From: Mobula hypostoma
Taxonomy: Eukaryota
NCBI RefSeq assembly: GCF_963921235.1
Contig: NC_086097.1
Span: 9,238,001-9,302,000, forward strand
Length of the DNA stretch: 64,000 nt
Direction of reading: 5' to 3'
The translations under genes were made by a program, and so were the position numbers. Below are positions 5,746-10,119 of this stretch, in pieces (position 1 is the stretch's first letter; each line of letters begins with the position of its first letter). Under the pieces are notes generated by a model. That model did not search any database and was not told where the DNA came from. It worked only from the letters and a program-made list of their open reading frames with translations.

Positions 5746-5932
5746 ATAATGTATAAAGAAAATGAGGAAAATGATCAGCAATATTAAATGAGGTCTCAAA
5801 TCTGTTTTTTTTTGTTTTCTCAAAACCAGTTACTTTCCCAAGCAGTATGGCTGATCATCACCTTCACCCACCAACCCACTCCACCACAATTCTTACCACC
5901 ACTACTTTATCATTTCCTGTCAGAGTCACCTT

Positions 5933-8125
5933 ATGTACGGACAAATGACACTTAAAGGATTGACGGTGGATATGCAATGGCAAGCATTTAAAGATTGCAT
6001 GGATGAACTACAACAATTGTTCATCCCAGTTTGGCAAAAGAATAAATCAAGGAAGGTAGTGCACCCGTGGCTGACAAGAGAAATTAGGGATAGTATCAAT
6101 TCCAAAGAAGAAGCATACAAATTAGCCAGAGAAAGTGGCTCACCTGAGGACTGGGAGAAATTCAAAGTTCAGCAGAGGAGGACAAAGGGCTTAATTAGGA
6201 AGGGGAAAAAAGATTATGAGAGAAAACTGGCAGGGAACATAAAAACGGACTGTAAAAGCTTTTATAGATATGTAAAAAGGAAAAGACTGGTAAAGACAAA
6301 TGTAGGTCCCCTGCAGACAGAAACAGGTGAATTGATTATGGGGAGCAAGGACATGGCAGACCAATTGAATAATTACTTTGGTTCTGTCTTCACTAAGGAG
6401 GACATAAATAATCTTCCAGAAATAGTAGGGGACAGAGGGTCCAGTGAGATGGAAGAACTGAGCGAAATACATGTTAGTAGGGAAGTGGTGTTAGGTAAAC
6501 TGAAGGGATTGAAGGCAGATAAATCCCCAGGGCCAGATGGTCTGCATCCTAGAGTGCTTAAGGAAGTAGCCCAAGAAATAGTGGATGCATTAGTGATAAT
6601 TTTTCAAAACTCGTTAGATTCTGGACTAGTTCCTGAGGATTGGAGGGTGGCTAATGTAACCCCACTTTTTAAAAAAGGAGGGAGAGAGAAACCGGGGAAT
6701 TATAGACCAATTAGCCTAACGTCGGTGGTGGGGAAACTGCTGGAGTCAGTTATCAAGGATGTGATAACAGCACATTTGGAAAGCGGTGAAATGATCGGAC
6801 AAAGTCAGCATGGATTTGTGAAAGGAAAATCATGTCTGACGAATCTCATAGAATTTTTTGAGGATGTAACTAGTAGAGTGGATAGGGGAGAACCAGTGGA
6901 TGTGGTATATTTGAATTTTCAAAAGGCTTTTGACAAGGTCCCACACAGGAGATTAGTGTGCAAACTTAAAGCACACGGTATTGGGGGTAGGGTATTGGTG
7001 TGGGTGGAGAATTGGTTAGCAGACAGGAAGCAAAGAGTGGGAATAAACGGGACCTTTTCAGAATGGCAGGCAGTGACTAGTGGGGTACCGCAAGGCTCAG
7101 TGCTGGGACCCCAGTTGTTTACAATATATATTAATGACTTGGATGAGGGAATTAAATGCAGCATCTCCAAGTTTGCGGATGACACGAAGCTGGGTGGCAG
7201 TGTTAGCTGTGAGGAGGATGCTAAGAGGATGCAGGGTGACTTGGATAGGTTGGGTGAGTGGGCAAATTCATGGCAGATGCAATTTAATGTGGATAAATGT
7301 GAAGTTATCCACTTTAGTGGCAAAAATAGGAAAACAGATTATTATCTAAATGGTGGCCGATTAGGAAAAGGGGAGGTGCAACGAGACCTGGGTGTCATTA
7401 TACACCAGTCATTGAAAGTGGGCATGCAGGTACAGCAGGCGGTGAAAAAGGCAAATGGTATGCTGGCATTTATAGTGAGAGGATTCGAGTACAGGAGCAG
7501 GGAGGTACTACTGCAGTTGTACAAGGCCTTGGTGAGACCACACCTGGAGTATTGTGTGCAGTTTTGGTCCCCTAATCTGAGGAAAGACATCCTTGCCATA
7601 GAGGGAGTACAAAGAAGGTTCACCAGATTGATTCCTGGGATGGCAGGACTTTCATATGAAGAAAGACTGGATGAACTGGGATTGTACTCGTTGGAATTTA
7701 GAAGATTGAAGGGGGATCTGATTGAAACGTATAAGATCCTAAAGGGATTGGACAGGCTAGATGCAGGAAGATTGTTCCCGATGTTGGGGAAGTCCAGAAC
7801 GAGGGGCCACAGTTTGAGGATAGAGGGGAAGCCTTTTAGGACCGAGATTAGGAAAAACTTCTTCACACAGAGAGTGGTGAATCTGTGGAATTCTCTGCCA
7901 CAGGAAACAGTTGAGGCCAGTTCATTGGCTATATTTAAGAGGGAGTTAGATATGGCCCTTGTGACTACGGGGGCCAGGGGGTATGGAGGGAAGTCTGGGG
8001 CGGGGTTCTGCCATGATCATAATAAATGGTGGTGCAGGCTCGAAGGGCCGAATAGCCTACTCCTGCACCTATTTTCTATGTTTCTATGTTTCTATGACAC
8101 TCCTGTACCTACCGTCACTCTGTAG
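5933..8125 (+). pseudogene. Young 5'-truncated CR1 LINE ORF2 (reverse transcriptase); element about 5940-8096
   Basis: 730-aa open frame with KSPGPDG, NYRPISLTS, QHGF, GVPQGSVLGP, FADD and RPHLEYC; no endonuclease; (tttctatg)3 tail at 8073-8096. Confidence 0.95.
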
Positions 8126-8159: not shown

Positions 8160-8995
8160 GGGTTAGATATAACAGAAGCGGCTGAGCAGAGAGTACTGCA
8201 GCACAACTTATCTCATGCCCCATGCTGCACAGAACATCGCATATCATTTGTGAAAGAAAGCTCCAAGTCAAGCGTGTACAGCACAGGTTCACGATCAAGC
8301 ATACTTTCTTCAGCCAATGATTGATGTGTCAAGGCTGACCTGGACGGGAAAGGCAGTTTCCCGGAGCAAATAGCTTTCACCACATTGCGTGCAGATACAA
8401 TCGTATGGTCTGACAGCAGTAGAGAAGTGGTTATTGGTGAACTCACAGTCCCCTGGGAAGACAACATCGATGAAGCCCATGAGAGCAAGTTAACCAAGTA
8501 GGCAAAATTAAGATCAGAATGCAGTGAGAGAAGGTGGAAGGTCTCATGCTATCCATTTGAAGTAGGCTGCCGTGGGTTTATTGCGTTCACTCTCCAGAAG
8601 TGGCTGAGTGACCTTGGCTTCACTAGAAGAGAGATCAAGTCAACCAGCAGGGCTGTAGCTGAGGCAGCAGAGACAGGATCAGCATGGGTGTGGACCATGT
8701 ATGTCCAGAGGGGCAGATAGTCAGACAGTGTATACATATCTTGCAAACCCTTCAGTAGTTGGATAGACACCTGAAGAGCAGACTATCTGTTGGGTGAAAG
8801 TGACCAACAACTCTGATAGAGGCAGATGTCAAGTTTTTAAGCTCACCAGTGGGAGGTGGTGCTTTAGCACTGCTGGCCCACCACCTCGAGGGAGTCTTGG
8901 TCATAAATGGGATGAAACTCCTGAAGATGGGTGGCAGATCAACTGATGATCCCACTGGTGATAGCACAGGACAGTTAACATCTTAGTCCATGTGT
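8160..8995 (+). mobile_element. HERO-clade (R2-group, restriction-like endonuclease) non-LTR retrotransposon, 3' fragment
   Basis: Read-through translation ...TTLRADTIVWS..EVVIGELTVPWEDNIDEAHESKLTK*...YPFEVGCRGF...AEAAETGSAWVW; two internal stops; ends TAG 8718-8720; structured 3' UTR. Confidence 0.85.
8891..8954 (+). ncRNA. Candidate non-circularly permuted hammerhead ribozyme
   Basis: GUC 8894-8896, GAAA 8914-8917, CUGAUGA 8943-8949; stems III (8891-95/8917-21), I (8897-8902/8937-42) and II (8950-54/8908-12) all pair. Confidence 0.7.
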
Positions 8996-10119
8996 ATTTT
9001 TAATTCGGGGATTTATATTTATTGTATTTTGTTATTATTGTGTTGTTTGTGCTGCATCAGATCTGGAGTAACAATTATTTTGTTCTCCTTTACACAGGTG
9101 TACTGGAAATGGCATGAAACAATCTTGAATCTTGACTGAATGAGGTAGAATTACATGGAATTTCCTGTTACGAACTTCTCTATAACTCAGCTAATGCTCC
9201 AAAGCTGGCAACTGCATATTATGATATTTTTAATCCGCCTGCAAGATGCAAGGTTGAGAAACCTACTTCCAAGTCACTGAAATGGAAGCCCTTTGTAAGT
9301 AGCAGCAGCGGTCCATAATTGAATACCAAAATATAAGTAATCTGATTAGGTCAACAGAACAGAAAACTGCTTGTGAGGAGAGGAAACAGCAGCACCCACA
9401 TTTATTCCACTTCCTGGCAGATGAAATCATAACATGGGTGTAGTGGCTACTTGAAAAAGAAAGCAGAATCGCTGAGAGACTGAGTGAGTGAATTAAAACT
9501 GTGTGGCGCGTTTCCAATAAACTGAGTTCCAAATCAAGAAAGTATGTTTGATCTTTTATTATAAAACCAGCAAAAATGAATGGTCAAAAATAGTGATAAA
9601 TGAAATTAATGATACTAACAAAATTAGCGAATTTAGTGATGCCAGCGTTATAAGCAAATTTATCATTCAACAAATAATATCCATCCCCTGCTCAGCCTCT
9701 CTCTAACTGAACTAGCGGCATGCAGGGTGAATATGTAACTATACACATTTGCTTCTACCACGCCACTACCCATGTGACAAATTACTGTAAACCAAAATAA
9801 AAACGCGCAACACAACATACAACAGACAGACAGAAAATAGATACGTGGCTCCTACAGTGGGGTTAAATTAAGAATGGTAGCTATGGGTTAAAAATGGTAC
9901 ATGTTTAGTTCCAGTGATTGGACAATGAGATCTAATGTAATTCCCTATTAACTCTAAGACTCTTCCTAAGACTTCAATGTCCTTCTGGGTTTCCAGTTCC
10001 TTCTGTTCAAGTGTGAAGGTCAATTGAACGGTATAAAGATTCATTATTCCATATAGTTTTAAATAATTCCTGCATGATTTTTGTGCAGCTCAGAGAAAAT
10101 AGGGAAATGGTTTCAACAG

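What the first reader, a model, noticed from the sequence alone, without database searches (positions are those of the whole stretch)
8843..8961. Non-circularly permuted hammerhead ribozyme in a HERO retrotransposon 3' UTR
Seen: all hammerhead core elements are present with pairing helices. GGAGU (8891-95) pairs with ACUCC (8917-21) as stem III, with a GUC cleavage triplet at 8896. UUGGUC (8897-8902) pairs with GAUCAA (8937-42) as stem I, directly before CUGAUGA (8943-49). UCCCA (8950-54) pairs with UGGGA (8908-12) as stem II, with one extra U before GAAA (8914-17). The order GUC, GAAA, CUGAUGA does not match types I, II or III, so it needs a pseudoknotted or dimeric fold. A perfect 12-bp helix (8843-54/8950-61) competes with stem II, and a 9-bp hairpin (8853-61/8879-87) lies upstream. 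Known: rearranged hammerheads have been reported, but I cannot check whether this family is among them. Inference: a switchable ribozyme that processes or circularises HERO RNA. The genomic copy spans the cleavage site, so its template was uncleaved or re-ligated.
Basis: partly seen in the sequence, partly recalled or inferred. Interest (0 to 1): 0.85.

Follow-up and report, generated by a model that had tools for sequence, protein, structure and literature searches.

The report
Rearranged hammerhead ribozyme in HERO-like retrotransposons
The 3' untranslated tail of a HERO-like jumping gene carries a conserved RNA fold with every catalytic letter of a hammerhead ribozyme in an unusual order, and the same fold recurs in dozens of distant relatives, which would place this rare kind of rearranged ribozyme in animal genomes.

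Summary
The hammerhead reading holds, but the anatomy needs correcting. I fetched 80 related retrotransposon loci from metagenomes. Of these, 61 carry the same roughly 115-nt domain, always on the coding strand just after the ORF. The invariant letters are CUGA-GA, GAA, the A15.1-U16.1 pair and a cleavage-site base that is never G. Position 7 is free.

Six helices covary:
- stem I and stem III;
- a hairpin (P2);
- a helix between the G-to-C linker and the segment before the cleavage block (P3);
- a helix between an upstream C-tract and the strand just before GAAA (P4).

In this copy it rests partly on a copy-specific letter. P4 takes the place of stem II, while A9 runs straight into P1. Together these give a gapless four-way junction. 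A kink-turn-like loop links stem III to P3.

The block order matches the type-SGC hammerheads of Eckert et al. 2023, which were known only from metatranscriptomes. The split C block is new. Self-cleavage was not tested. The window copy is 5'-truncated and decayed.

The parts
8325..8720 (+). 5'-truncated C-terminal ORF fragment of a HERO-like (R2-group, REL-endonuclease) non-LTR retrotransposon. It has an in-frame TAG at 8499-8501 and its stop at 8718-8720.
   Evidence: The translation matches 32 longer proteins with E down to 1e-58. Several carry RVT_1 and zf-RVT. Alignment A1 shows the conserved ELTVPWE and EVGCRGF motifs. The fragment itself has no Pfam hit.
8843..8854 (+). P1, 5' strand. 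It pairs with 8950-8961.
   Evidence: 12 perfect pairs. In relatives 10 of 10 pairs show changes on both sides and 92-93% of cells are paired.
8855..8874 (+). P2 hairpin (8855-62 with 8867-74, loop UUUA). It directly follows P1 and directly precedes P4.
Evidence: 8 of 8 pairs show changes on both sides.
8875..8880 (+). P4, 5' strand. It takes the place of the hammerhead 10.x strand, and G8875 sits where G10.1 would. It pairs with 8908-8913.
   Evidence: P4 is a pseudoknot helix that was not in the covariance model. 92-95% of cells are paired and 4 of 5 pairs show changes on both sides. The closing pair is G-C in 41 and G-U in 7 of 51. In this copy G8876 faces A8912, a mismatch. The family majority reads C at 8912.
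8881..8886 (+). P3, 5' strand. It pairs with 8929-8934.
   Evidence: 6 of 6 pairs show changes on both sides and 96% of cells are paired on A5. On the MAFFT alignment 5 of 6 pairs change on both sides and 88% are paired.
8887..8889 (+). Junction C-G-A. G8888 and A8889 form the non-bulged side of a kink-turn-like loop.
   Evidence: G in 48 of 52 letters and A in 51 of 54, immediately 5' of stem III.
8890..8896 (+). Stem III 3' strand (16.x, 8890-8895) and C8896 (position 17). The predicted cleavage is between 8896 and 8897.
   Evidence: Stem III is 100% paired on A3. U16.1 is present in 54 of 54. Position 17 is C in 19, A in 19, U in 16 and G in 0 of 54.
8897..8902 (+). Stem I 5' strand (1.x). 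It pairs with 8937-8942.
   Evidence: Stem I is a pseudoknot helix that was not in the model. 6 of 6 pairs show changes on both sides and 91% of cells are paired. G8900-U8939 is a wobble in this copy. The family majority reads A at 8900.
8903..8907 (+). A-rich linker joining the far end of stem I to the far end of P4.
   Evidence: The linker is short and variable in all copies.
8908..8913 (+). P4, 3' strand (the 11.x strand), directly before G12.
8914..8916 (+). G12 A13 A14 of the hammerhead core.
   Evidence: G in 50 of 53, A in 53 of 53 and A in 53 of 53 model hits.
8917..8922 (+). Stem III 5' strand (15.x). A8917 is position 15.1.
8923..8928 (+). Kink-turn-like bulged side: three variable bases (8923-25), then G8926 and A8927, then one more base.
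   Evidence: G in 49 of 51 and A in 49 of 51, after exactly three variable bases. The kink-turn consensus itself is recalled, not tested.
8929..8934 (+). P3, 3' strand.
8937..8942 (+). Stem I 3' strand (2.x).
8943..8949 (+). C3 U4 G5 A6 U7 G8 A9 of the hammerhead core.
   Evidence: C in 52 of 52, U 52 of 52, G 52 of 52, A 53 of 53. Position 7 is free (U 24, C 13, A 9, G 7). G8 in 52 of 53, A9 in 53 of 53.
8950..8961 (+). P1, 3' strand. It starts directly after A9.
   Evidence: Offset 0 in 20 of 24 copies.
8962..9006 (+). 3' tail of the element. The element ends at about 9006-9008.
   Evidence: Loose ends of many contigs lie at 9006, and depth falls in the bin 9015-9044. Similarity to locus L069 runs from 8846 to 9008.

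Best explanation
Window 8843-8961 is one copy of a conserved domain of about 115 nt in the 3' UTR of HERO-like (R2-group) non-LTR retrotransposons. The copy is decayed and 5'-truncated. The domain is a rearranged hammerhead ribozyme.

Shown:
- The catalytic core and stems I and III are those of a hammerhead, with the blocks in the order cleavage site, GAAA, CUGANGA (type SGC).
- Stem II is not a hairpin. The strand before G12 pairs with an upstream C-tract (P4, with a G-C closing pair where G10.1-C11.1 would be).
- A9 continues into a long helix, P1, with the 5' end of the domain.
- Hairpin P2 fills the gap between P1 and P4.
- So the core, P1, P2 and P4 meet in a four-way junction with no unpaired bases in most copies.
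- Stem III continues through a kink-turn-like loop into P3. P3 ties the far ends of P4 and stem I together.

Inferred:
- In intact copies the RNA cleaves between position 17 and 1.1 (8896|8897 here).
- After cleavage the two products stay joined by P1, P4, P3 and stem III (about 29 bp), which favours re-ligation or use as a nicked template.
- Reverse transcription starts about 45-70 nt downstream of the domain and copies through it. Hence genomic copies contain both sides of the cleavage site.
For: Distribution:
- A core-plus-stem I/III scan finds the motif in 50 of 80 related loci, all on the + strand. It gives 0 rows on the minus strands of all 81 sources.
- Model R1 finds 54 matches at E<=1e-4, all on the + strand.
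- Taken together, 61 of 80 loci carry it.

Covariation on a MAFFT alignment of 18 copies:
- 92.7% of cells are paired against 66.1% in shuffles (0 of 500 shuffles reach it).
- 36 of 41 pairs change on both sides.
- Slid controls give 35-43%.

Helices left out of the model (P4 and stem I) on 54 model-aligned copies: 92.4% paired against 57.6% shuffled (0 of 500).

Core letters in the 54 model hits are invariant or nearly so. Position 7 is free and position 17 is never G.

Junctions have no spacer columns in most rows. GA and NNN-GA flank stem III.

Published type-SGC hammerheads with this block order cleave in vitro (PMC10085705, section 14).
Against: - No cleavage data exist. Every run available was kept as contigs, which cannot show RNA ends.
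- Genomic copies span the cleavage site, so the template RNA was intact or re-joined.
- A9 is not covalently followed by the 10.x strand. No tested hammerhead I know of has this break, and Eckert et al. assumed the blocks cannot be interrupted.
- My rough geometry suggests the closed ring (stem III, kink, P3, stems I/P4) may not fit a canonical stem II on stem III coaxial stack.
- The perfect-core scan selects for the core, so only the model-based counts are unbiased. About 10 recognised copies carry lesions in the core or blocks, as expected for dead copies.
- 5 loci with 284-782 nt downstream have no motif at all.
Confidence: 0.7

Rival explanations
1. The domain is a non-catalytic recognition structure. 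It would be the 3' UTR element that the HERO reverse transcriptase binds to start target-primed reverse transcription, and it keeps a hammerhead-like fold only as a scaffold.
For: - It lies 45-70 nt from the element's 3' end, where R2-group enzymes are known to bind structured, pseudoknotted 3' UTR RNA (abstract of PMC12222951 seen in the listing; the rest is recalled).
- Copies contain both sides of the 'cleavage' site.
- P1, P2, P3 and the kink-turn-like loop go beyond what cleavage alone needs.
- In a Penelope-like element, hammerhead mutants did not affect insertion in vitro (PMC11167929, passages).
Against: - The conserved letters are exactly the catalytic ones. The pattern follows the hammerhead rule: position 7 free, position 17 any base but G, 0 of 54.
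- A pure protein-binding site gives no reason for that pattern.
- The two roles do not exclude each other.
Confidence: 0.2
2. One reading: a switchable ribozyme in which a direct stem II (8950-54 with 8908-12) forms the active state and the 12-bp helix 8843-54/8950-61 is the competing inactive state.
For: - Both pairings can be drawn in this copy.
- In lineages where the bases after A9 are CCC, they are also complementary to the G-tract before GAAA.
- Slid registers of the direct stem reach 57-62% paired.
Against: - The direct stem II is at chance level: 45.6% against 46.6% shuffled (362 of 500 shuffles as high), and 44.1% against 41.3% (48 of 500).
- The 10.1/11.1 position is paired in 0 of 18 and 4 of 50.
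- Lineages whose strand before GAAA is not G-rich (L034, L040, L047, L059) still pair it with the upstream tract, not with the strand after A9.
Confidence: 0.05
3. Chance resemblance to a hammerhead in a structured repeat.
For: A single copy at the loosest descriptor is expected about 0.07 times per shuffled window (4 in 60). Over very many windows, such hits would occur.
Against: The same arrangement, with a perfect core, recurs in 50 of 80 independent relatives whose helices differ in sequence. It never appears on the other strand.
Confidence: 0.01

Closest known systems
Type-SGC hammerhead ribozymes (HRIMA-1 motif and type-SGC variants; Eckert, Friedrich, Weinberg and Weinberg, NAR 2023, PMC10085705)
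   Same: Both have the block order S, G, C, and so a pseudoknotted fold. The core letters are the same. Stems I and III are present. A short linker joins the 1.x strand of stem I directly to the 11.x strand before GAAA (sections 13-15; supplementary alignments).
   Different: - Theirs have a direct stem II. In the supplementary alignment rows, the strand right after CUGAUGA pairs with the strand before GAAA. They also have a stem linking the other sides of stems I and II, and they are about 80 nt long.
- Here the C block is split: A9 runs into P1, the 10.x strand comes from upstream (P4), and P2, P3 and a kink-turn-like loop are added.
- Theirs were found in metatranscriptomes only. [quoted passage not shown] This one is in DNA, in retrotransposons.
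Hammerhead ribozymes of Penelope-like elements and retrozymes (Cervera and de la Pena 2014, PMC4209133; 2020, PMC7229834; Frangieh et al. 2024, PMC11167929)
   Same: A hammerhead core carried by a eukaryotic retroelement. Head-to-tail arrays occur in both (9 of 80 loci here). In both, unprocessed RNA can serve as template (PMC11167929, passages).
   Different: Those are canonical type I motifs, often minimal and acting as dimers (recalled). They sit in pseudo-LTRs of elements with GIY-YIG endonuclease, or in non-autonomous elements. I saw only listings and abstracts of the first two papers.
HDV-like ribozymes of R2 and other non-LTR elements (Eickbush and Eickbush 2010; Ruminski et al. 2011; seen only as references)
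   Same: A self-cleaving ribozyme encoded by an R2-group or other non-LTR retrotransposon.
   Different: A different ribozyme class. Those lie at the 5' end, where they release the element RNA from a co-transcript. Rfam found no HDV-like or any other family in 20 HERO-like loci.
Structured 3' UTR of R2 elements bound by the R2 protein
   Same: A pseudoknotted RNA close to the 3' end of an R2-group element.
   Different: No hammerhead core has been reported there, as far as I recall. I saw only one abstract, in the listing.

Membership tests
Hammerhead ribozyme | Core C3 U4 G5 A6 N7 G8 A9, with position 7 free | tested here: met
   In 54 model hits: C 52/52, U 52/52, G 52/52, A 53/53. N7 is U 24, C 13, A 9, G 7. 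G8 52/53, A9 53/53. Window 8943-8949 reads CUGAUGA.
Hammerhead ribozyme | G12 A13 A14, followed by the A15.1-U16.1 pair | tested here: met
   G 50/53, A 53/53, A 53/53, A15.1 52/53, U16.1 54/54. The three G12-to-A rows are decayed copies.
Hammerhead ribozyme | Cleavage-site base 17 is A, C or U, never G | tested here: met
   C 19, A 19, U 16, G 0 of 54. Three rows (L024, L026, L028) are shifted by one column in that alignment. Their true base is U.
Hammerhead ribozyme | Stems I and III flank the core and covary | tested here: met
   Stem I: 6 of 6 pairs change on both sides, 91% paired, and it was not in the model. Stem III: 100% paired on A3, 4 of 6 pairs change on both sides.
Hammerhead ribozyme | Stem II is formed by the strand after A9 and the strand before G12 | tested here: not met
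   The pairing is at chance level. A helix with a G-C closing pair does abut G12 (P4), but its other strand is not joined to A9.
Hammerhead ribozyme | Site-specific self-cleavage giving a 2',3'-cyclic phosphate and a 5'-OH | not testable with these tools
   Only contigs of sequencing runs were available.
Type-SGC hammerhead (Eckert et al. 2023) | Blocks occur in the order S (cleavage site), G (GAAA), C (CUGANGA) | tested here: met
   8896, 8914 and 8943 in the window. The order is the same in all 50 scanned loci.
Type-SGC hammerhead (Eckert et al. 2023) | Uninterrupted blocks: CUGANGA is contiguous with the stem II strand | tested here: not met
   A9 is followed by P1. The stem II-like strand lies about 70 nt upstream.
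HERO clade of the R2 group of non-LTR retrotransposons | A single ORF with RT followed by a PD-(D/E)XK-like endonuclease (PMC3636483, passages) | tested here: inconclusive
   Full-length relatives have RVT_1 and zf-RVT and a conserved C-terminal domain. No Pfam model hit that domain. Named hits are from Takifugu, Lytechinus, Amphiura and Branchiostoma.
HERO clade of the R2 group of non-LTR retrotransposons | Placement by RT-domain phylogeny | not tested
   No reference set of clade RT sequences was at hand.
Kink-turn | Canonical helix, three-base bulge, tandem G-A/A-G pairs, non-canonical helix (consensus recalled) | tested here: inconclusive
   The sequence pattern fits: stem III, 3 variable bases, then GA (49/51 each), opposite GA (48/52 and 51/54), then P3. 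The fold itself was not tested.

The most novel reading that the evidence does not exclude
The ribozyme would serve to join as much as to cut. Under this reading:
1. Unit-length HERO RNA is released from head-to-tail arrays by two cleavages.
2. Its 5' end carries the catalytic strands. Its 3' end carries the substrate strand and the 5' strands of P1, P4 and P3.
3. Four helices of about 29 bp clamp the two ends into an intact hammerhead, and the RNA is re-ligated into a circle or a stable panhandle.
4. The reverse transcriptase then starts internally, 45-70 nt past the domain.

This would give both the truncated solo copies and the tandem arrays. It would be the first autonomous LINE with a retrozyme-like circular RNA stage. 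It would also be a hammerhead that works with stem II broken open into a four-way junction.
Probability: 0.2. Interest if true: 0.92.

Novelty: new variant of a known kind. Interest (0 to 1): 0.8.

Why it matters
- Non-circular permutations of a ribozyme were first reported in 2023, and only in RNA from environmental samples of unknown hosts. This finding would place one in the DNA of animals, inside an autonomous retrotransposon clade. In some genomes it is present in very many copies: 13,872 and 12,948 contigs were laid in two runs.
- It shows a block arrangement that the 2023 scheme excluded by assumption, because the C block is interrupted. That widens what searches for rearranged ribozymes should allow.
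- It gives R2-group elements a second ribozyme class, at the opposite end from the known HDV-like ones.
- It makes directly testable how a LINE uses, or restrains, a self-cleaving RNA that lies inside its own reverse-transcription template.
- Four full-text searches found no paper that links hammerheads with HERO or with REL-endonuclease LINEs.

Tried and rejected
- **Rfam.** No family reached its gathering score in the window. At E<=10 on 8700-9100 there were only two chance matches. There were 0 matches in 20 related loci.
- **Own genome.** It is not held. The records behind the loci are not held either, so I could not look further upstream for tandem copies.
- **Second copy in the window.** None found.
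- **Sequencing runs.** All 24 runs are kept as contigs. The four I laid (X1, X9, X10, X19) cannot show RNA ends, strand or expression. The table of molecule starts and ends was empty. The dip in depth at 8895-8924 coincides with copy-specific letters and is not a finding. Only the best-supported 41 rows of differing letters were shown; 183 were not.
- **First scans.** They demanded a direct stem II and so found only 13 and then 23 of 80 loci. Dropping that demand gave 50.
- **Scan on helices alone.** A scan without core letters was too noisy to use. Random top hits scored as high as true ones. Still, top hits had either 0 core mismatches (or 3, in L043) or at least 5.
- **MAFFT on all 23 first instances (A2).** It misaligned P1 and P2 and was not used.
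- **Terminal direct repeats of contigs.** None found.
- **Earlier notes of this scan.** Nothing by sequence, by words or by place.
- **Supplement of Eckert et al.** No mention of reverse transcriptase or kink-turn, and the only 'retrotransposon' and 'eukaryot' matches lie in its reference list. Its alignment rows show a direct stem II.
- It failed on a mistyped structure length and was repeated.
Full report
**What is in the window**

- the cleavage block GGAGUC followed by UUGGUC (8891-8902);
- UGGGA-U-GAAACUCC (8908-8921);
- GAUCAA-CUGAUGA-UCCCA (8937-8954);
- a perfect 12-bp helix, 8843-54 with 8950-61.

The order cleavage site, GAAA, CUGANGA is the one that Eckert et al. (PMC10085705; sections 13-15 read) named type SGC. 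It is one of three non-circular permutations of the hammerhead.

Rfam 15 has nothing here.

On its own the single copy is only moderately improbable. My descriptor finds exactly one site in the window. Sixty shuffles gave 4 sites at the loosest setting and none at 5/4/4 bp.

**Context**

- Window 8325-8720 is the C-terminal end of an ORF, with an internal TAG at 8499-8501.
- Its translation matches 32 longer proteins with E down to 1e-58. Several carry RVT_1 and zf-RVT. The named hits are from Takifugu, Amphiura, Lytechinus and Branchiostoma. The motifs ELTVPWE and EVGCRGF are conserved.
- This is the layout of the R2 group of non-LTR elements, to which the Hero clade belongs (PMC3636483, passages). 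I did no RT phylogeny, so 'HERO-like' is as far as the evidence goes.
- The ORF at 5855-8125 belongs to a different element.

Contigs of four runs from four coded organisms were laid on 8325-9200. They show:
- The family is present in very many contigs (13,872 and 12,948 laid in X1 and X9).
- It ends at about 9006. Similarity to locus L069 also ends at 9008.
- This copy differs from nearly all contigs at 8900, 8907, 8912, 8928 and 8929, and from part of them at 8908.

The copy is therefore 5'-truncated and somewhat decayed.

**Relatives**

No genome is held for the window. I therefore used the C-terminal protein alignment to fetch 80 loci from metagenome contigs, each oriented with the ORF on the + strand.

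How many loci carry the motif depended on the search:
- Printing these side by side showed a larger common architecture.
- A scan that asked only for the core letters plus stems I and III found it in 50 of 80 loci. All were on the + strand, downstream of the ORF. There were no rows on any minus strand.
- A covariance model built from 18 copies, with only the nested helices, finds 67 matches at E<=1. Of these 64 are on the + strand, and the 3 on the minus strand have E 0.24-0.76.
- The same model finds 54 matches at E<=1e-4, all on the + strand. The window scores 71.2 bits, E 3.6e-16.

Taken together, 61 of 80 loci carry the domain. The other 19 break down as follows:
- 9 have fewer than 160 nt after the ORF;
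- 5 have weaker model hits;
- 5 have 284-782 nt after the ORF and no motif even with two core mismatches allowed. These probably have another kind of 3' UTR.

**The fold (window coordinates)**

- P1: 8843-54 with 8950-61.
- P2: hairpin, 8855-62 with 8867-74.
- P4: 8875-80 with 8908-13.
- P3: 8881-86 with 8929-34.
- Stem III: 8890-95 with 8917-22.
- Position 17: C8896.
- Stem I: 8897-8902 with 8937-42.

On the MAFFT alignment of 18 copies:
- 92.7% of cells pair, against 66.1% in shuffles (0 of 500 reach it).
- 36 of 41 pairs show changes on both sides.
- Sliding one strand by 1-3 columns drops pairing to 35-43%.

P4 and stem I cross the other helices and were not in the model, so the model-based alignment of 54 copies is not fitted to them. 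There they pair in 92.4% of cells, against 57.6% shuffled (0 of 500). The nested helices on that alignment give 94.6%, but that alignment is fitted to them.

- 45.6% against 46.6% shuffled on A3, with 362 of 500 shuffles as high;
- 44.1% against 41.3% on A5, with 48 of 500 as high;
- the pair next to the core forms in 0 of 18 and 4 of 50.

Lineages whose strand before GAAA is not G-rich still pair it with the upstream tract (for example L029, L038, L047, L059).

**The core**

Counts in the 54 model hits:
- C3, U4, G5 are present in 52 of 52.
- A6 and A9 are present in 53 of 53.
- G8 is present in 52 of 53.
- Position 7 is U 24, C 13, A 9, G 7.
- G12 is present in 50 of 53.
- A13 and A14 are present in 53 of 53.
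- A15.1 is present in 52 of 53.
- U16.1 is present in 54 of 54.
- Position 17 is C 19, A 19, U 16, G 0.

This is the hammerhead rule. It holds across lineages whose helices share no sequence.

Copies recognised by the model but lacking a perfect core are visibly decayed:
- G12 changed to A in L055, L067, L079;
- deletions in L068 and L071;
- a changed 15.1 in L056;
- a stem I mismatch in L042.

L003 and L006 have U at position 3. L043 has U3 together with A8. C3 and G8 are known to pair: single changes abolish cleavage and the double change partly restores it (as cited in PMC11167929). With one such copy, and transitions being common, I treat this as a curiosity only.

**How the pieces fit a hammerhead**

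- P4 abuts G12 with no spacer. Its closing pair is G-C in 41 and G-U in 7 of 51. That is the place and identity of the G10.1-C11.1 pair (recalled).
- The G is not joined to A9. A9 runs without spacer into the 3' strand of P1.
- The 5' strand of P1 runs without spacer into P2, and P2 runs into P4 (column layout).
- So the core helix, P1, P2 and P4 form a perfect four-way junction, and the C block of Eckert's scheme is split.
- At the other end, the far ends of stem I and P4 are tied by a short A-rich linker, as in published type-SGC ribozymes, and also by P3.
- P3 is connected to stem III through GA (48 of 52 and 51 of 54) on one strand, and three variable bases plus GA (49 of 51 each) on the other. 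This is the sequence pattern of a kink-turn (consensus recalled, fold untested).
- A sharp kink there is what the topology needs, because stem III points away from stems I and II.
- My rough distances suggest the ring closes more easily if P4 is not coaxial with stem III. That leaves open which arm stacks on the core. This is inference only.

**Function**

Shown: a conserved, selected RNA domain with a hammerhead core lies 45-70 nt before the element's 3' end.

Inferred: self-cleavage at 8896|8897 in intact copies.

After such a cut, the two products would remain held by P1, P4, P3 and stem III. This suits re-ligation or use as a held-together template. It also fits the fact that genomic copies, including this 5'-truncated one, contain both sides of the site.

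In 9 of 80 loci a second ORF start follows on the same strand. It begins 567-700 nt after the domain in eight of them and about 940 nt after a weak model hit in L003. In the L051 family the sequence after the domain runs without a foreign spacer into what is the 5' region of other copies. Solo copies of that family end about 68 nt after the domain.

Head-to-tail arrays with a ribozyme in each unit recall Penelope-like elements and retrozymes. They make unit-length processing and circularisation a real possibility, but nothing here shows it.

The main rival is a purely structural reverse-transcriptase binding site. It does not explain the pattern of conserved letters. It may also be a second role of the same RNA.

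**Comparison and novelty**

- Eckert's HRIMA-1 and type-SGC variants share the block order and the stem I to stem II linker. They have a direct stem II (supplementary alignment rows), are about 80 nt long, and were found in metatranscriptomes only.
- A 2026 paper still lists retroelement ribozymes as hammerheads of Penelope-like elements and retrozymes, HDV-like and twister motifs (PMC13725137, passages).
- Full-text searches for 'type-SGC', for HERO with hammerhead, and for hammerhead with non-LTR or REL-endo found nothing on this element. Subscription journals are not covered.
- I therefore rate it a new variant of a known kind.

**Limits**

- There are no cleavage data and no raw RNA reads.
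- The host organisms of the metagenome loci are unknown.
- The HERO assignment has no phylogeny.
- Covariation counts are over copies, not independent events.
- The perfect-core scan is biased towards the core by design, so the core statistics I rely on come from the model-based set.

Noticed in passing
Loci L020-L075 and others, P2 loop (alignment A5 columns 19-48): The P2 hairpin loop holds a self-complementary hexamer in 36 of 54 copies. UGAUCA occurs in 25 and UGGCCA in 4 (L025, L045, L056, L066). The central AU-to-GC change keeps the palindrome. This is the signature of loop-loop (kissing) pairing between two RNAs. GACGUC occurs in 6 others but sits inside an extended stem, and AGUACU occurs in one more (L058). 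The window's family has loop UUUA and lacks it.
   Followed up: partly
L003, L025, L031, L043, L051, L058, L059, L062, L075: These loci show head-to-tail arrangement. A second HERO-like ORF start follows on the same strand, 567-700 nt after the 3' UTR domain in eight of them and about 940 nt after a weak model hit in L003. In the L051 family there is no foreign spacer, and solo relatives (L026, L028) end about 68 nt after the domain. I could not check whether this is an assembly effect.
   Followed up: partly
L043:1522-1639; L003:2188-2292; L006:2138-2242: L043 has U at core position 3 together with A at position 8. That is the double change that would keep the C3-G8 tertiary pair. L003 and L006 have U3 with G8. 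These may simply be decay by transitions.
   Followed up: no
window 9046-9135: A separate repeat of about 90 bases, present in very many contigs of all four runs and especially in X19. T-rich loose ends lie before 9046 and varied sequence lies after 9135. It looks like the tail end of a SINE or LINE lying on the minus strand.
   Followed up: no
window 5855-8125 (+): A 756-codon open frame with an RVT_1 domain (E 3.6e-32). This is another non-LTR retrotransposon directly upstream of the HERO-like fragment.
   Followed up: no
L012:1585-1869; L015:3390-3730: Two HERO-like loci without the hammerhead domain instead carry several copies of a short GGAUUA-containing repeat unit in their 3' region. 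This may be a different kind of 3' UTR.
   Followed up: no
P0017, P0018, P0019, P0031 (alignment A1 columns 300-457): Four related predicted proteins read through the usual stop for about 100 residues into what should be the 3' UTR. The extension is conserved among them. The DNA could not be fetched.
   Followed up: no
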